In this document: piece by piece, positions 5,486 to 9,502 of the stretch
Layout of the letters: every line of letters starts with the position of its first letter
Position numbering within the stretch: position 1 is the first letter of the stretch
NCBI GenBank assembly: GCA_001779925.1
Contig: MFEK01000007.1
Coordinates: 4,108 to 68,107 of the forward strand
Source of the DNA: Candidatus Doudnabacteria bacterium RIFCSPHIGHO2_01_FULL_46_14
GTDB lineage: Bacteria > Patescibacteriota > Doudnabacteria > UBA920 > 2-01-FULL-46-14
Direction: 5' to 3'
DNA length: 64,000 nucleotides
Notes under the pieces: generated by a model
Databases searched by the model: none
What the model saw: only the letters and a program-made list of their open reading frames with translations
Told to the model about the DNA's origin: nothing
Translations under genes and position numbers: made by a program

Positions 5486-5911
5486 TTACTGATTATTAGT
5501 CATTATTCTAACCGTTTCTTTGCCTTTTGCCAAGTCCTTGCCGCCGGCCAGTTTCCAGCCGGAATCCACGGGCTCAAAAGCTGCGACTGTGCGGTATCTG
5601 CCCTTCCCGGTCTCAATGAGGATTCGAAAAACATTATGCGTGTCATGATAGATAACGTAAGCATGGGGATCCCCTTTTACGAATTCCAATTCTCTGACTA
5701 TCCATGTTTCGGCAGTCGGCGGAGTTGGGGAAAGGTCATTGATCTGGCCGGCTATCTCTAAGACTGCTTCTGGATAGGACTCGCTGCTTAAAATTTGCCG
5801 TTCAAATTTATTCTCAGGCGGCTTTGTAATTTTCGGCAAAAAATAAACGGCGATCAAACCAGCTATGACAAACACAACGATGAGAATGACTTTTTTCATA
5901 ATGGAGCCCAC
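5486..5911 (-). CDS. Hypothetical membrane-anchored protein
   Basis: 141 aa with an N-terminal TM helix and no recognisable motif. Its 5' end overlaps the tRNA-Thr 3' exon by 11 nt, so the true start may be internal. Confidence 0.35.
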   Translation of the reverse strand: MGSIMKKVILIVVFVIAGLIAVYFLPKITKPPENKFERQILSSESYPEAVLEIAGQINDLSPTPPTAETWIVRELEFVKGDPHAYVIYHDTHNVFRILIETGKGRYRTVAAFEPVDSGWKLAGGKDLAKGKETVRIMTNNQ

Positions 5912-6164
5912 GAGCAGAATTGAACTGCTGACCTACTCCTTCATTCTATACCTCTCTTTATTTAACACATTATTAGAGGATTAGACTGTATCTTAATCCC
6001 GACATACCGCCGGGATTCCCTTGTCAGTCGTTCGAGCGCCAAATCAGCGCTACGGTCTTGATCTTGTGCAGACCTTTAACCGTTATTCGGGTGACGCCCA
6101 GAGATTACTCTTTGGGCGGGCAATTTCTACCATGGAGTTGCTCTACCAGCTGAGCTACGTGGGC
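5901..6164 (-). tRNA. tRNA-Thr (anticodon GGU) interrupted by a 188-nt intervening sequence between positions 36 and 37
   Basis: 5' exon 6129-6164 reads GCCCACGTAGCTCAGCTGGTAGAGCAACTCCATGGT. 3' exon 5901-5940 reads AAGGAGTAGGTCAGCAGTTCAATTCTGCTCGTGGGCTCCA. The acceptor, anticodon stem (ACTCC/GGAGT) and loop (AUGGUAA) only form after removing 5941-6128. Confidence 0.6.
5941..6128 (-). ncRNA. Candidate group I intron in the tRNA-Thr anticodon loop
   Basis: The 5' exon ends in U and the intron ends in G. P7-like pairing GACTG...CAGTC. An R-like segment CGACTGACAAGGG and an S-like segment AAGATACAGTCTAATCC resemble group I core elements. The 188-nt size is close to the smallest known bacterial tRNA introns. 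Confidence 0.45.
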
Positions 6165-6221
6165 AGGCTTTCAAATAATAATCGAAATATCGGGATTCTT
6201 CAAGACCGTCACAAGAATATT

Positions 6222-6308
6222 TCCTCCCCTGGATGGGGGAGGAATTGAGGAAGAGGTGTAGGAAACGTCATCACCCCCACCTAACCTCCCCCCTCAAGGG
6301 GGAGGAAT
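6222..6308. repeat. GC-rich palindromic hairpin elements (family A), two hairpins
   Basis: ttcctcccctggatgggggagga ... cacccccacctaacctcccccctcaagggggagga. Confidence 0.8.
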
Positions 6309-6313
6309 AAATT

Positions 6314-6922
6314 CTATTTTACCTTTGCGTATTGGCGGGTGACCCAGCCGGTGCTACCGTTTGCGAGCCTGATCTCATACCAGCCCTTGGTCTCATTTGT
6401 GGAAATAAGGATGTACGCTTCACCCGGCTTGACCTCGCCGATCTTTGCAAAATTCGTGCCAGGCCCTTTGCGAACATTTAGAAAATTTGTTGGAGTCGAA
6501 AGAATTTCCACCACTTGCACAGGAGCCGCAGGCTGTACGCCGGCTGGCGGAGTGGGCTCAGCAGCAGTGGTTGTCGGAGTCGTTGTGGCCGGAGGCGGCG
6601 GGCTCGCCGTGTCGTCGGGGATTGTAATTGTAGGCGCGGAATAATCATCCGGGGACGTAGTCCGAGTGTTTAAATAAAATAAAATTGCCGCGCCCGTAAG
6701 CCCCCCGAGAATCATCGCATAAAGGACGGCTTTTGCCAGTCGGTGATGGGACTCGGGCATGATGATCTTGGAATCAAGCAGTCGCCGCTCTGTTAATACG
6801 GTTGCGTCCTGTTTTTTGGGTACTGGTTTTTTCCTGGGCTTGCGAATCGGTACCGTTTTCCCAGAAACGGGACTGGAATTAATGTTTGGGTCTGAAGGCG
6901 TGCTTTCTATATTATCAGGCAT
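6314..6922 (-). CDS. Membrane-anchored protein with Pro/Thr-rich linker and C-terminal bacterial SH3 (SH3b)-like domain
   Basis: TM helix at 60-80, P/T-rich stretch, C-terminal GWYEIRLANGSTGWVTRQY. Confidence 0.5.
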   Translation of the reverse strand: MPDNIESTPSDPNINSSPVSGKTVPIRKPRKKPVPKKQDATVLTERRLLDSKIIMPESHHRLAKAVLYAMILGGLTGAAILFYLNTRTTSPDDYSAPTITIPDDTASPPPPATTTPTTTAAEPTPPAGVQPAAPVQVVEILSTPTNFLNVRKGPGTNFAKIGEVKPGEAYILISTNETKGWYEIRLANGSTGWVTRQYAKVK

Positions 6923-6935
6923 ATTTTAATTTTAA

Positions 6936-7676
6936 TTAACTTTTTAATGGCAAAGTGAAAATAAAAGACGTTCCTTTTCCTTCCTCAGAATCAAAACTGA
7001 TTTTCCCGCCCATAATCTCTACGAGAGATTTCACAATAAAAAGGCCCAGTCCGGTGCCGTCAGGAGAGAGCTTGAGGATGTTATGGCTGCGGAAAAATTT
7101 ACCAAAAACCTTAGCTTGTTCGCTTTTCGGAATCCCGACCCCGGTATCGGAGATTGATATTGAAACATTGTTTCCTTTCTTTTCCAGAACCACGCTGATC
7201 TTGCCGCCGCGCGGCGTATATTTAATGGCGTTAGAAATGAGATTCGCCATAATGCGGCTGAGTTTATCCGGGTCAGTCTGTACAAGCGGAAGAGGCCCAT
7301 TTACGATTTGGTAATCAAGGGACACTCCGGCTGTTTTGATGATCATGCTGTGATTGTCAATAATTTCTTCCGCTATTTTTTCAATCTGCATGGGTCTGAC
7401 CTCCAGATGGATCTGCCCTTCCTGAATTCGGGAGACATCGAGCAAATCATTAACCAAACCGATGGCCCGTTCGTTGGAGCGGTAGATTTCCCGCAAATAT
7501 TCTTCCTGTTTTTTGGCCAATTTCCCCGCGCGGCCGGCAAGCAGAATCTCGCAAGACCATTTCACTGCGGAAAGAGGCGTGCGAAGCTGGTGACTGGCGA
7601 GCGTAACAAAATCATACTGGATATTTTGCAGATTTACTTTTTCGCCTGAACCTAAAAGATTTTTGAGTTTACCCAT
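6936..7676 (-). CDS. Histidine kinase (HisKA + HATPase_c, no sensor domain)
   Basis: H-box SHQLRTPLSAV, N/G1/G2 boxes (NAIKYT, DTGVGI, GTGLGL). Confidence 0.8.
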   Translation of the reverse strand: MGKLKNLLGSGEKVNLQNIQYDFVTLASHQLRTPLSAVKWSCEILLAGRAGKLAKKQEEYLREIYRSNERAIGLVNDLLDVSRIQEGQIHLEVRPMQIEKIAEEIIDNHSMIIKTAGVSLDYQIVNGPLPLVQTDPDKLSRIMANLISNAIKYTPRGGKISVVLEKKGNNVSISISDTGVGIPKSEQAKVFGKFFRSHNILKLSPDGTGLGLFIVKSLVEIMGGKISFDSEEGKGTSFIFTLPLKS

Positions 7677-7723
7677 TTACCTGCTGAATTTATTATGGTT
7701 AGCCAATTTATAATACACGAAAA

Positions 7724-9502
7724 TTAAACTTTCGCCACCGGCTTTACGTTTTTTTCTTCCACGAGCGGCAAACTGAAATAAAATGTAGTGCCTTTTCCTT
7801 CGGCTGAGATGACATTTACGCGCCCGCCGTGCGCTTCCACTATTCCTTTGACGATAACAAGACCAAGGCCGGATCCTTTCTTTTCGCTTTTACTGGCTGT
7901 GGACAGCTGCTGGAATTTATTGAAAAGCCTGCCTACTTCAACCTCCGGAATACCCATCCCGGTATCAGAGATGCTTATGATAAGTTCATCCATGGCGCAA
8001 ACATTGCCCTTTGCAAACACCGGCCACGGCAATTTAAGGTTTTCCGCGTGCACGCCAACGTCATCGTCCCGTTTGCAGACAAACGCGGACAAGGTAATCT
8101 TGCCGCCAGGCGGCGTAAATTTGATGGCATTGGAAATGATATTGTTAAAAACCTGGGTGATTTTCATGTCATCCAAAGCAAGCGAATCCGGAACCTCCGG
8201 ACCCACGTTCTCCACGATTTCCAAGCGCGATTCGGCAGCGAGACTGGTGAAGGACTCGATCCGCTGCTTGATAATCTTTTTGATATCGCCCGGCTTTTTG
8301 AAAACCTGAAATTTGCCAGCCTCTATTTTGGCCACATCCAAGAGATCATTCACCAGATCCAGCATAGAGGAAGAATTTACGGAAATCAGGCTGACAAATT
8401 CCTGATATTTTTTTTGCTCATTTTTTATTTTTTCGCTTTTGAGCAAATCCGCAATACTCCGTATGCCAGTCAAAGGCGAGCGGAGTTCGTGCACCATCAT
8501 CGAGGTGAAATCCTCCCGCATTTTTTCCACCTCTTTTTCGTGCGTGACATCATGGAACAGCACCACGCTGCCGATCGGCTCGTTTTTATTATCTTTTACC
8601 GGACTGATCAAAATCTGCACAAACCGCCCTTCGATCGCCACCTCGTCCTCGACAATAACCTCATCTTTCCTGATGCTTTCTTCTATCTTTGTGCGCAGAT
8701 CTAAATGATCAGAGAGTTTATCGAGAATCTCAAAAATTGTCGGATGCTCAGCTTTTATCCCCAACAGTGTCCGAGTTTGAGGATTGACAACCATAACACG
8801 GTTGGCCGGATCCACCATTAGAACACCGTCAGCCATACTTGAGACCATCGAGTTAAGTTTGCCTTTTTCGACCTCCAAAACGATCTCCAGCTTGGAGACA
8901 GCCTCGGAGGCCTGGTTCATAATTGTATATAAAATCTCCACCTCCTGACTGGTTTTATAAAGACCGGGCTTTGTCGAGGCAACAGTAAAAATTCCGGCAG
9001 GGCGGTTGTTGATAACAATCGGAATGTTGAAAAACGATTCCACCTTGGACGCGTTGGTCGGGTCAGTGACCACACCGGTAACAGTCTCATCCACATCGCT
9101 TTCCGTATAATTTTTTCCAAGCAAGGTAGAAAAAGATTTCAGCATTCGTATTCTGGCATCGGCGATAAATCCTTTGCTCACCGGCTCGGCGAGATTGACG
9201 TGATATAAAAGCCGCCCCGATTCCGTGGGCAGCATGTAAACGACCATGGAGTACGGCAAAAGATTGCCCAGGGAAGAAGAAATAATGTCTACGATTTTCT
9301 GAACATTCAGTGAATAGCCAATACGCTCTCCCAGTTCCCGCAAAATCGAAATCTCGTACATGCGGCGCCTCATCAGCTCTTCACGGTCAATCAATCGGGC
9401 ATATAAACGACGAAATTCAATCCAGGCAACAATCAAAACTACCAGGCTAAAAATGGCCGCCCAAAATATTGGATCTGTCGAAATACCAGGATTAAACATC
9501 AA
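7724..9502 (-). CDS. Sensor histidine kinase with N-terminal TM helix and GAF/PAS-like region
   Basis: 592 aa; H-box HELRSPLTGI, N/G boxes (NAIKFT, DTGMGI, GSGLGL). Confidence 0.8.
   Translation of the reverse strand: MMFNPGISTDPIFWAAIFSLVVLIVAWIEFRRLYARLIDREELMRRRMYEISILRELGERIGYSLNVQKIVDIISSSLGNLLPYSMVVYMLPTESGRLLYHVNLAEPVSKGFIADARIRMLKSFSTLLGKNYTESDVDETVTGVVTDPTNASKVESFFNIPIVINNRPAGIFTVASTKPGLYKTSQEVEILYTIMNQASEAVSKLEIVLEVEKGKLNSMVSSMADGVLMVDPANRVMVVNPQTRTLLGIKAEHPTIFEILDKLSDHLDLRTKIEESIRKDEVIVEDEVAIEGRFVQILISPVKDNKNEPIGSVVLFHDVTHEKEVEKMREDFTSMMVHELRSPLTGIRSIADLLKSEKIKNEQKKYQEFVSLISVNSSSMLDLVNDLLDVAKIEAGKFQVFKKPGDIKKIIKQRIESFTSLAAESRLEIVENVGPEVPDSLALDDMKITQVFNNIISNAIKFTPPGGKITLSAFVCKRDDDVGVHAENLKLPWPVFAKGNVCAMDELIISISDTGMGIPEVEVGRLFNKFQQLSTASKSEKKGSGLGLVIVKGIVEAHGGRVNVISAEGKGTTFYFSLPLVEEKNVKPVAKV

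What the first reader, a model, noticed from the sequence alone, without database searches (positions are those of the whole stretch)
5901..6164. tRNA-Thr(GGU) split by a 188-nt group I-like intron 3' of the anticodon
A complete tRNA-Thr cloverleaf forms only if 5941-6128 is removed. It has the GCCCACG/CGTGGGC acceptor, a Thr-like D-arm, the ACTCC/GGAGT anticodon stem, loop AUGGUAA, variable AGGUC, a T-arm and encoded CCA. The 5' exon ends with U and the intervening sequence ends with G, as group I splice sites require. The intervening sequence contains a P7-like pairing (GACTG/CAGTC) with an adjacent AAGATACAGTC segment resembling the conserved S element. Bacterial tRNA group I introns are known in tRNA-Leu, -fMet, -Ile and -Arg. 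I do not recall one in tRNA-Thr, and 188 nt would be at the small end of known sizes.
Basis: partly seen in the sequence, partly recalled or inferred. Interest (0 to 1): 0.65.

Follow-up and report, generated by a model that had tools for sequence, protein, structure and literature searches.

The report
Compact group I intron splitting tRNA-Thr
A threonine tRNA gene of an uncultured ultra-small (Patescibacteria/CPR) bacterium is interrupted right after its anticodon by a 187-base group I-type (self-splicing) intron; the intron is real and well supported, but it belongs to a class already described in these bacteria, so it is a new example, not a new kind of thing.

Summary
On the minus strand, tRNA-Thr(GGU) is exon 1 (6164-6129) plus exon 2 (5941-5902), split by a 187-nt intron (6128-5942) between U36 and A37. 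ARAGORN with its intron option calls exactly this. The joined exons are 76/76 identical to an intron-less tRNA-Thr(GGU) at the syntenic locus of a Doudnabacteria relative.

The intron is one of at least 97 distinct homologs (169-297 nt) found in genome and metagenome contigs. In those whose host gene could be resolved, it sits in tRNA-Thr(GGU) at 36/37, follows U and ends in G. The family folds into a group I architecture: P1 with a U•G wobble, P2 with a GNRA loop, the P3/P7 pseudoknot, and P4-P9. In 85 aligned sequences, 36 of 51 pairs change on both sides. A covariance model built without the window sequence scores it 159.7 bits, the only hit in the 64 kb.

RF00028 misses it. That matches the literature, which describes "divergent group I introns" found only in Patescibacteria tRNA-Thr(GGU) (Castelle 2018; Williams 2020; Nakagawa 2026).

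Verdict: a real, probably self-splicing intron and a new member of a known kind. I found no published splicing assay for this class.

The parts
6129..6164 (-). tRNA-Thr(GGU) exon 1 (positions 1-36: acceptor 5' strand, D-arm, anticodon stem 5' strand, loop A32 U33, anticodon G34 G35 U36)
   Evidence: ARAGORN after in-silico splicing and with the intron option. Identical to the intron-less ortholog in L003/L004.
5942..6128 (-). Group I-type intron, 187 nt, inserted between tRNA positions 36 and 37. It has no ORF.
   Evidence: boundaries. (leave-one-out model R1: 159.7 bits, E about 3e-47, full length). (covariation). Boundary fixed at 36/37 because 59 of 97 homologs do not start with A.
5902..5941 (-). 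tRNA-Thr(GGU) exon 2 (A37 A38, anticodon stem 3' strand, variable loop AGGUC, T-arm, acceptor 3' strand, U73, encoded CCA)
6119..6131 (-). P1. The anticodon G34 G35 U36 (6131-6129) plus intron A1 G2 pairs with the internal guide sequence U6 U7 G8 C9 C10 (6123-6119). U36•G8 is the wobble pair at the 5' splice site. The loop is AAA.
   Evidence: G-C, G-C and U•G in 85/85 sequences. The +1 pair is G•U 43, A-U 38, U-A 2. The +2 pair is G-C 50, A-U 25. In a phage copy the exon is GCU and the guide is UGGC.
6095..6118 (-). P2 hairpin (CGCCC/GGGCG, then AGA/UCU) capped by a GUAA tetraloop (6105-6108)
   Evidence: All 8 pairs change on both sides in the family. G-N-A-A in the loop is conserved (invariant and near-invariant columns).
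6089..6091 (-). P3 5' strand (CCC)
   Evidence: Pairs with 6018-6020. Family combinations: CCC/GGG, CCU/AGG, CUC/GAG, UUC/GAA, UCC/GGA. 99% of cells paired and all 3 pairs change on both sides.
6052..6083 (-). P4-P5 domain: P4 ACGGUU (6083-6078) / GACCGU (6057-6052), J4/5 AAA (6077-6075), P5 hairpin GGUCU-GCACA-AGAUC (6074-6060), J5/4 AA
   Evidence: P4 is 100% paired and nearly invariant, with compensatory changes only in the phage copies and L195. P5 pairs change on both sides.
6035..6051 (-). P6 hairpin (AGCGCU-GAUUU-GGCGCU)
   Evidence: All counted pairs change on both sides. The segment closes as a hairpin in 79/86 members against 23/86 shuffles.
6025..6034 (-). J6/7 (CGAAC, 6034-6030) and P7 5' strand (GACUG, 6029-6025). 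G100 (6029) pairs with C145 (5984). This is the counterpart of the guanosine-binding G-C pair of P7, with C99 as the probable bulge.
   Evidence: Invariant in the family. That invariance is partly fixed by the search pattern for the metagenome set. It is also present in all 5 complete introns found by the intron-agnostic exon search. The guanosine-binding role is an inference from the Tetrahymena P7 GACUA/UAGUC, recalled from my own knowledge.
6018..6024 (-). J7/3 (ACAA, 6024-6021) and P3 3' strand (GGG, 6020-6018). P3 crosses P7, giving the group I pseudoknot.
5996..6016 (-). P8 hairpin (AUCCCGGC-GGUAU-GUCGGGAU)
   Evidence: The segment closes with at least 4 bp in 86/86 members against 27/86 shuffles. 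The three outer pairs are 97% paired and all change on both sides.
5984..5995 (-). J8/7 (UAAGAUA, 5995-5989) and P7 3' strand (CAGUC, 5988-5984).
   Evidence: Aligns to the RF00028 consensus gAAGAUAUAGUC. Invariant in the family.
5942..5979 (-). P9 hairpin (CCUCU...AGAGG, 5979-5951), 3' tail UAUAGAAU, and terminal guanosine ωG at 5942
   Evidence: P9 is 99% paired and all 5 pairs change on both sides. A G precedes exon 2 in every resolved member (my filter required it) and also in the contig-edge cases read by eye.
6175..6203 (-). Promoter-like site (TTGAAG-17-TATTAT) ending about 10 nt upstream of the tRNA 5' end. Context only and weak.
   Evidence: Consensus scan, 9/12 matches. 2 sites found against 0.7 expected in shuffles.

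Best explanation
The 187 nt at window 5942-6128 (minus strand) are a compact group I-type intron interrupting the tRNA-Thr(GGU) gene between U36 and A37. It belongs to the 'divergent group I' intron family that is widespread in Patescibacteria tRNA-Thr(GGU) genes.

Proposed mechanism. The helices are shown by covariation. The chemistry is inferred from established group I knowledge. The pre-tRNA is probably transcribed from its own promoter. The intron's guide sequence (U7 G8 C9 C10) pairs with the anticodon G34 G35 U36 plus A+1 to form P1, with U36•G8 marking the 5' splice site. The core (P3-P8 and P4-P6, tied together by the P3/P7 pseudoknot, with A-rich J4/5 and J8/7) positions P1. An external guanosine bound at the G100-C145 pair of P7 cleaves after U36. 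The terminal G187 then takes that site, and U36 attacks the 3' splice site. This joins U36 to A37 and restores the AUGGUAA anticodon loop of a tRNA identical to the intron-less ortholog.

The intron has no endonuclease gene. Its patchy presence among close relatives suggests a tolerated selfish element that persists because it must splice.
For: Boundaries and host gene: ARAGORN after splicing and with the intron option. The spliced tRNA is 76/76 identical to the syntenic intron-less gene in L003/L004. The locus is identical in two samples.

Family: an exon-based genome scan, blind to intron sequence, found 5 complete homologs in Patescibacteria-type contigs, including Ca. Doudnabacteria, plus one cut at a contig end. 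A core-based metagenome scan brought the total to 103 resolved split tRNA-Thr(GGU) genes. These comprise 97 unique introns of 169-297 nt in 89 distinct host tRNAs, all at 36/37. U-1 and ωG were required by my boundary filter. The contig-edge cases read by eye show the same bases.

Structure: on MAFFT alignment A1, 91.1% of cells are paired, against 76.3% in shuffles and 30-48% with slid partners. 36 of 51 pairs change on both sides. The covariation score is 0.413 against 0.148, reached by 0/500 shuffles. On model-based alignment A3, 97.2% are paired against 81.3%, and 31 of 41 pairs change on both sides. The P3 pseudoknot covaries at all three pairs.

Membership: model R1, built without the window sequence, scores the window intron 159.7 bits at full length. 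It is the only hit in the window. There is no hit in intron-less L003. tRNA-borne family members score about 118-190 bits.

Splice rules work elsewhere: three family copies in a phage major head protein gene (L136) restore a 442-aa ORF only when cut after U and at a G. One of them has exon GCU matched by guide UGGC.

Core match to group I: the RF00028 alignment of P8'-J8/7-P7'. MFE z = -4.3.

Literature: the same class is described.
Against: No experiment. [quoted passage not shown]

RF00028 scores only 21.9 bits against a gathering score of 50, and its 5' half is misaligned. That model also misses the other bacterial tRNA introns tested, so this weighs little.

The window copy has a very short P1 (4-5 bp) and P3 (3 bp), and no convincing P10. 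A need for a protein cofactor cannot be excluded.

Invariance of J6/7-P7 and J8/7-P7' in the metagenome set was imposed by my search pattern. P7 therefore has no covariation evidence and rests on conservation plus the five introns from the pattern-independent set.

The equation with the published 'divergent group I' tRNA-Thr introns rests on matching descriptions (host, site, terminal G, Rfam-negative, phylum). I could not obtain those published sequences.
Confidence: 0.9

Rival explanations
1. The element is group I-derived and is removed in vivo, but it is not autonomously self-splicing. Being so reduced (no P2.1, P5abc, P7.1/7.2 or P9 extensions; 3-bp P3), it would need a host or phage protein cofactor or RNA chaperone, or it would splice only inefficiently.
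For: The architecture is minimal: 75 of 97 family members are shorter than the 205-nt Azoarcus intron. P1 and P3 are short in the window copy. I found no published splicing assay for this class. From my own knowledge, many organellar group I introns depend on proteins.
Against: The complete catalytic core is conserved and supported by covariation. The conserved GNRA loop in L2 suggests self-contained tertiary docking, as in other compact introns. [quoted passage not shown] No candidate cofactor gene is linked to the locus.
Confidence: 0.12
2. The gene is a dead tRNA, a pseudogene disrupted by insertion of a non-splicing mobile or repeat element.
For: Default tRNA finders and Rfam do not call the gene. 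RF00028 is below threshold.
Against: The exons are 76/76 identical to the intact ortholog, with no decay. About 100 homologs sit at exactly the same phosphodiester bond in 89 different tRNA-Thr(GGU) sequences that ARAGORN still calls as tRNA-Thr(ggt) once spliced. Compensatory changes in every variable helix show selection on the RNA fold. There are no terminal repeats and no ORF.
Confidence: 0.03
3. It is a protein-spliced intron of the archaeal/eukaryotic bulge-helix-bulge kind at the canonical 37/38 position. The A/A ambiguity in the window sequence formally allows that placement.
For: Boundaries 5941-6127 give the same mature tRNA as 5942-6128.
Against: 59 of 97 homologs begin with G, U or C, which forces 36/37. 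The intron ends in G, follows U and forms P1 with a U•G pair. From my own knowledge, bacteria lack the splicing endonuclease. The fold is a group I core, not a bulge-helix-bulge motif.
Confidence: 0.01
4. It is an assembly chimera: a metagenome mis-join placed foreign DNA inside a tRNA gene.
For: The window is a metagenome-assembled contig.
Against: The sequence is identical in independent assemblies of two samples. The same architecture appears in about 100 unrelated contigs, including a closed 804-kb chromosome (L066).
Confidence: 0.01

Closest known systems
'Divergent group I' introns of Patescibacteria tRNA-Thr(GGU) (Castelle et al. 2018 Nat Rev Microbiol, as summarised in bioRxiv 10.1101/2025.07.03.662931; detected by the tFind tool of Williams 2020 with its gpI_bact_tRNA.cm model; Nakagawa et al. 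2026, PMC13011429)
   Same: Same host gene and anticodon. Same insertion directly after the anticodon (36/37). Ends in G. Group I-like size and structure. Not detected by RF00028. Same phylum. The window organism's nearest named relatives are Ca. Doudnabacteria.
   Different: Nothing substantive. This is another locus of the same class. The published counts were 15 introns (Castelle) and 3 in complete genomes (Nakagawa). I could not align against the published sequences themselves.
Azoarcus sp. BH72 tRNA-Ile(CAU) intron (subgroup IC3, 205 nt) and the other classical bacterial tRNA introns (Leu 34/35, fMet 33/34, Arg 36/37)
   Same: Compact P1-P9 architecture without large peripheral domains. 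Located in the anticodon loop. Williams' code 'Ile2.5Ug' suggests the same 36/37 site, which is my reading of that code. U•G at the 5' splice site and ωG at the 3' end. No endonuclease ORF.
   Different: The core sequence is different. J8/7-P7' is UAAGAUACAGUC here, against GAAGGGAUGGUCC in the IC3-like alphaproteobacterial Thr introns. Model R1 does not detect those introns. Most family members are shorter than 205 nt. Nakagawa et al. place the Thr introns with subgroup IA, not IC.
Patescibacteria tRNA-Asn and tRNA-Asp group I introns at 35/36 (subgroup IA; self-splicing shown in vitro, Nakagawa et al. 2026)
   Same: Same phylum. Anticodon-loop insertion. Similar P/Q/R/S-type core motifs (AAUUGCGGGAAA / AAUCCGCAGC / GUUCAGAGACUA / GAGAUAGUCC against AAUAACGGUUAAA / AAGACCGUAGC / CGAACGACUGA / AAGAUACAGUC). 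They are reported as the closest phylogenetic neighbours of the Thr introns.
   Different: Different host tRNAs and insertion site. They are longer (roughly 225-570 nt in Table S3), carry extra sequence between P7 and P3' (presumably P7.1/P7.2, my reading), and some encode homing endonucleases. They are detectable with RF00028. The Thr family is not.
Group I introns in phage structural genes (for example the multiple introns of Staphylococcus phage Twort orf142, from my own knowledge)
   Same: Three copies of this same intron family interrupt one phage major head protein gene on metagenome contig L136. They follow U, end in G, and restore the ORF when removed.
   Different: The host is a protein-coding gene, not a tRNA. 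One copy has a retargeted guide sequence (UGGC for exon GCU). The relationship to Twort-type introns was not tested.

Membership tests
Group I introns | P1 helix formed by the 5' exon end and an internal guide sequence, with a U•G wobble at the 5' splice site | tested here: met
   G34-C10, G35-C9 and U36•G8 occur in 85/85 aligned family members. The +1 and +2 pairs covary. The guide changes to UGGC where the exon is GCU.
Group I introns | Terminal guanosine (ωG) at the intron's 3' end | tested here: met
   G at window 5942. G precedes exon 2 in all 103 resolved members, where my filter required it, and in the contig-edge cases read by eye. In L136 the ORF is restored only with G-terminal boundaries.
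Group I introns | Conserved core of P3-P9 with the P3/P7 pseudoknot and the P4-P6 domain | tested here: met
   All helices are 87-100% paired, apart from MAFFT misalignment inside P8. Compensatory changes occur in P2, P3, P5, P6, P8 and P9. Shuffle and slide controls are far lower. P4 and P7 are conserved and not covarying. P7 was partly fixed by the search pattern.
Group I introns | Conserved joining segments (A-rich J4/5; J8/7 of the AAGAUAUAGUC type) and a G-C guanosine-binding pair in P7 next to a bulged base | tested here: met
   J4/5 is AAA. J8/7-P7' UAAGAUACAGUC aligns to the RF00028 consensus. GACUG/CAGUC is preceded by C99, with A98 able to pair with U146. The functional role is inferred.
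Group I introns | Match to the curated Rfam model RF00028 at its gathering score | tested here: not met
   21.9 bits against 50, and 12.8 bits on the intron alone. The test lacks power. RF00028 also missed 17/17 other family members, the 3 phage copies, and 2 unrelated alphaproteobacterial tRNA-Thr introns. Williams notes that none of its 12 seed sequences were bacterial.
Group I introns | Guanosine-dependent self-splicing by two transesterifications | not testable with these tools
   Needs an in vitro splicing assay or RNA data. Indirect support comes from perfectly conserved exons and ORF restoration in L136.
Patescibacteria 'divergent group I' tRNA-Thr(GGU) intron family | Host is tRNA-Thr with anticodon GGU, with insertion directly after the anticodon (36/37) | tested here: met
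   Literature definition.
Patescibacteria 'divergent group I' tRNA-Thr(GGU) intron family | Sequence and structure homology to other members | tested here: met
   Leave-one-out model R1 scores 159.7 bits, E about 3e-47, full length, within the family range. The nearest member, L182, is 82% identical with an identical host tRNA. Caveat: the comparison set was collected here. The sequences published under that name were not available.
Patescibacteria 'divergent group I' tRNA-Thr(GGU) intron family | Host organism in Patescibacteria/CPR | tested here: met
   The flanking protein's only named homolog is from Ca. Doudnabacteria, at 59% identity. The syntenic locus occurs in relatives. Intron-bearing homologs come from Ca. 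Doudnabacteria, Ca. Kerfeldbacteria and 'Patescibacteria group' MAGs. Lineage.
Subgroup IC3 bacterial tRNA introns (Azoarcus/Anabaena type) | IC3-type core sequence | tested here: inconclusive
   There is no hit between R1 and the IC3-like alphaproteobacterial Thr introns L061 and L112, and J8/7 and J6/7 differ. No subgroup-specific models were available. The overall minimal architecture resembles IC3, but Nakagawa et al. group the Thr introns with IA. I do not file it under IC3.

The most novel reading that the evidence does not exclude
This family may be a distinct, minimal lineage of group I ribozymes. Most copies are 169-204 nt, shorter than the 205-nt Azoarcus intron, and I found no report of any being spliced in vitro. 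It is shared between Patescibacteria tRNA-Thr(GGU) genes and phage capsid genes. It may move between these targets by retargeting a 3-4-nt guide sequence (GCC for the anticodon or Gly codon GGU; GGC for GCU), with phages as the vehicle, although it has no homing endonuclease. If it splices by itself, it would be among the smallest natural self-splicing group I introns I know of and a useful minimal model.
Probability: 0.3. Interest if true: 0.5.

Novelty: new member of a known kind. Interest (0 to 1): 0.25.

Why it matters
For annotation: this essential-looking tRNA-Thr(GGU) gene is invisible to default tRNA finders and to Rfam. Genomes like this one would be scored as lacking it, which lowers completeness estimates for CPR genomes. 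Nakagawa et al. 2026 already made this point for tRNA-Asn and tRNA-Asp.

For RNA biology: the class is known, so this window adds one more example. The family assembled here has at least 97 distinct sequences, a covariation-supported secondary structure and a working covariance model. It shows that these introns are abundant, mostly shorter than the Azoarcus ribozyme, and have close relatives in a phage capsid gene. A splicing assay on a 170-190-nt member would be a cheap and worthwhile experiment.

Tried and rejected
1. Rfam RF00028 as arbiter. It gave only sub-threshold hits with a misaligned 5' half, borrowing an upstream hairpin as P1/P2. It later proved insensitive to all bacterial tRNA introns tested, so I rejected it as a refutation test.

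2. The published tRNA-Thr intron sequences were not in the stored part of the Nakagawa supplement.

3. My exon-pattern assumption that G38 is rare in intact tRNA-Thr(GGU) was wrong. Most of the 120 genome hits were intact Lachnospiraceae and Chitinophagaceae genes. Only 8 complete split genes emerged, plus one cut at a contig end. The single genome scan was therefore used inefficiently.

This was corrected.

5. My first P5 numbering was off by one and was corrected.

6. The MFE fold pairs GUCA with UGAC and GCC with GGG. That conflicts with P7 and P3. I rejected it because P3 CCC/GGG covaries and P7 matches the group I consensus.

7. I considered the 37/38 placement (bulge-helix-bulge type). 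It is rejected by homologs that do not start with A.

8. MAFFT misaligns the inner part of P8, giving 69% paired. The anchor-based test (86/86 closed) and the model-based alignment (97%) resolve this.

9. A literature search for 'smallest known' group I intron found nothing citable. Only the 205-nt Azoarcus length could be cited.

10. Pfam found no family for the spliced L136 protein. PHROGs did.
Full report
**Observation**

The feature lies on the minus strand. Default ARAGORN and the Rfam tRNA model find seven other tRNAs in the window but nothing at this locus. Deleting 187 nt (window 5942-6128) yields a sequence that ARAGORN calls tRNA-Thr(ggt). ARAGORN with its intron option independently reports a 76-nt tRNA-Thr(ggt) spanning 6164-5902, with a 187-nt intron at position 36-37.

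The corrected anatomy is exon 1 at 6164-6129, intron at 6128-5942 and exon 2 at 5941-5902. With these boundaries the 5' exon ends in U and the intron ends in G.

**Is it a real gene?**

The window matches an ENA metagenome contig of 90.5 kb. A second sample carries the identical locus. The protein encoded immediately downstream has only a handful of homologs. The only named one is from Candidatus Doudnabacteria, at 59% identity.

Contigs encoding that homolog (L003, L004) keep the same gene order: two histidine kinases, an SH3-domain protein, tRNA-Thr, the 137-aa protein, L33, HU and tRNA-Trp. There, the tRNA-Thr(GGU) is uninterrupted. It is 76/76 identical to the window's joined exons. The exons are therefore under full purifying selection, and the insertion point is defined to the nucleotide, apart from an A/A ambiguity. 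A promoter-like site ends about 10 nt upstream of the gene, just after a terminator-like hairpin that follows the SH3 gene.

**Is the insert a group I intron?**

Rfam RF00028 gives only 21.9 bits (gathering score 50). It aligns P8'-J8/7-P7' convincingly (GGGAUUAAGAUACAGUCUAA against ggaUgAAGAUAUAGUCuaa) but misplaces the 5' half. The single-sequence fold is unusually stable (z = -4.3) and recovers P2, P4/P5, P6, P8 and P9. This is suggestive only, so I looked for homologs.

*Homolog search.* I ran an exon-based pattern on one genome per species, blind to intron sequence. It returned mostly intact genes. It also returned eight complete split tRNA-Thr(GGU) genes and one cut at a contig end. Five of the complete ones, plus the cut one, come from Patescibacteria-type contigs (Ca. 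Doudnabacteria, Ca. Kerfeldbacteria, a 'Patescibacteria group' MAG, and an 804-kb closed chromosome). These share long invariant blocks with the window intron. Two come from Alphaproteobacteria and have a different, Azoarcus-like core.

I then ran a core-based pattern on metagenomes, which hit its 120-locus limit. In total, 103 core matches resolve as tRNA-Thr(GGU) split at 36/37. They comprise 97 unique introns of 169-297 nt (median 195) in 89 different host tRNAs. U before the intron and G at its end were required by my boundary filter. The contig-edge cases read by eye show the same bases. About 14 other matches are chance hits in coding genes, and two lie in other contexts. Because 59 of the 97 introns begin with G, U or C, the insertion site is 36/37, not 37/38.

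*Structure.* I derived a secondary structure for the window intron by hand, guided by the family alignment, and projected it onto an 85-sequence MAFFT alignment. In intron numbering it reads:

- P1: exon G34 G35 U36 plus A1 G2, paired with U6 U7 G8 C9 C10
- P2: 11-34, with a GUAA tetraloop
- P3: 38-40 with 109-111
- P4: 46-51 with 72-77
- J4/5: AAA
- P5: 55-69
- P6: 78-94
- J6/7: CGAAC
- P7: 100-104 with 141-145
- P8: 113-133
- J8/7: UAAGAUA
- P9: 150-178
- ωG: 187

The pair counts support it. 91.1% of cells are paired, against 76.3% in column shuffles and 30-48% when partners are slid by 1-3 columns. 36 of 51 pairs change on both sides. The covariation score is 0.413 against 0.148, and no shuffle out of 500 reaches it. 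The three P3 pairs, which cross P7 and create the group I pseudoknot, occur as CCC/GGG, CCU/AGG, CUC/GAG, UUC/GAA and UCC/GGA. An alignment-free test cuts each intron at the invariant blocks. It shows that each variable segment is a closed hairpin far more often than its shuffle. For P8 the figures are 86/86 against 27/86.

P4 and P7 are essentially invariant. For P7 this was partly imposed by my search pattern, but the five introns from the pattern-independent genome scan carry the same P7.

*Membership test.* I built a covariance model from 84 family members, excluding the window sequence. It matches window 5942-6131 over its full length at 159.7 bits (E about 3e-47). That is the only hit in the 64 kb. 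It finds nothing in the intron-less ortholog or in the alphaproteobacterial Thr introns. tRNA-borne family members score about 118-190 bits. On the resulting structure-aware alignment, 97.2% of cells are paired and 31 of 41 pairs change on both sides.

*An independent check on the splice rules.* The same model found three full-length copies (107-138 bits) on a phage-like contig, L136. Removing them, each cut after a U and at a G, restores a single 442-aa ORF. Other boundary choices do not. The ORF matches a PHROG major head protein family across two of the junctions. In one copy the exon ends in GCU instead of GGU, and the guide sequence reads UGGC instead of UGCC. The guide therefore covaries with its exon, as P1 requires.

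**Mechanism**

*Shown:* the helices, the U•G wobble at the 5' splice site, the terminal G, the conserved joining segments, and a guide sequence that reads the anticodon itself.

*Inferred from established group I chemistry:* an external guanosine docks at the G100-C145 pair of P7 and cleaves after U36. G187 then occupies that site, and U36 attacks the 3' splice site. This restores the AUGGUAA loop. The conserved G-N-A-A loop of P2 suggests a tetraloop-receptor contact, as in other compact introns. I did not test that.

There is no ORF, so there is no homing endonuclease. Presence in the window organism and in L095, but absence in L003/L004, all Doudnabacteria-like, indicates gain or loss among close relatives.

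**Comparison with what is known**

Williams (2020) expanded it to 21 settings using exon-aware mapping and a bacterial tRNA-intron model.

Castelle et al. (2018), as summarised, described 15 'divergent group I' introns in CPR bacteria. [quoted passage not shown] Nakagawa et al. (2026) found three such Thr(GGU) 36/37 introns among 95 complete Patescibacteria genomes. They noted that RF00028, and in two of the three cases ARAGORN, fail on them, and placed them on a long branch next to the Patescibacteria IA introns. Their splicing assays covered only the Asn and Asp introns.

The window intron fits this description on every point, so it is a new member of a known kind. I could not retrieve the published sequences to align them directly.

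RF00028 at its gathering score misses all 17 other family members tested, the three phage copies and the two alphaproteobacterial introns.

**Size**

At 187 nt the intron is shorter than the 205-nt Azoarcus intron. It is in the lower third of its own family. 75 of 97 members are under 205 nt, and the shortest confirmed is 169 nt.

**Verdict**

Residual interest lies in three things. No splicing experiment has been published for this class. The family is compact and abundant. The phage-borne relatives have a retargeted guide sequence.

Noticed in passing
L136:6187-8100 (JGI contig Ga0208465_1000533); introns at 6280-6469, 6746-6935 and 7569-7752: Three copies of the same intron family (190, 190 and 184 nt; model R1 scores 107-138 bits) interrupt one phage major head protein gene downstream of a scaffold-like ORF. 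Removing them restores a 442-aa ORF (phrog_9953, E = 1e-5). The first copy has exon ...GCU and guide UGGC instead of GGU/UGCC. Castelle 2018 reportedly saw this intron type only in tRNA-Thr.
   Followed up: partly
L061:3894-4145 (Hyphomicrobiaceae MAG) and L112:171-396 (Acetobacteraceae MAG): tRNA-Thr(GGU) genes in Alphaproteobacteria are also split at 36/37, by 252- and 226-nt introns. Their core is different and Azoarcus/IC3-like (GGUGUAGAGGCCAGACGG ... GAAGGGAUGGUCC). Model R1 does not detect them, and neither does RF00028 at its gathering score. The same site appears to have been colonised independently by a second intron lineage.
   Followed up: partly
L195:909-1103 (WNFH01120602.1): Another group I-like element shares CGAACGACUG and AAGAUACAGUC but has a different P4 (AUCGGGGGAAG / AAUCCCGACG). 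It scores only 34 bits with R1. Its host gene was not identified.
   Followed up: no
L066:2771-6122 (OY970216.1, 804-kb chromosome): The 23S rRNA match spans 3352 nt for a 2925-position model, so the gene probably carries an insertion of about 400 nt, which is common in CPR rRNA genes. It lies about 1.4 kb from the split tRNA-Thr.
   Followed up: no
window 6221-6310: Between the SH3-domain gene and the tRNA there are GC-rich hairpins built from CCUCCCCC/GGGGGAGG repeats. One (6244-6221, minus strand) scores as an intrinsic-terminator-like site. These hairpins produced spurious weak microRNA and whalefall-1 hits in the Rfam E-value scan, and RF00028 mistook one for P1/P2.
   Followed up: partly
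L025:1-53 and L049:2341-2369 (Lachnospiraceae and Clostridiales MAGs): A normal-looking tRNA-Thr(GGU) 5' half is followed by sequence that does not complete the anticodon stem, and no exon 2 is found within 2.3 kb in L049. This could be a different insertion, an integrated element at the tRNA, or a pseudogene.
   Followed up: no
L005:1-32 and L006:1-36: In two more distant homologs of the 137-aa flanking gene, the sequence just upstream does not end like tRNA-Thr(GGU). It reads ...AGGTTCGTACTTTGTTGTAAATATACTCC. The tRNA-Thr linkage may therefore not be conserved, but the contigs are too short to tell.
   Followed up: no
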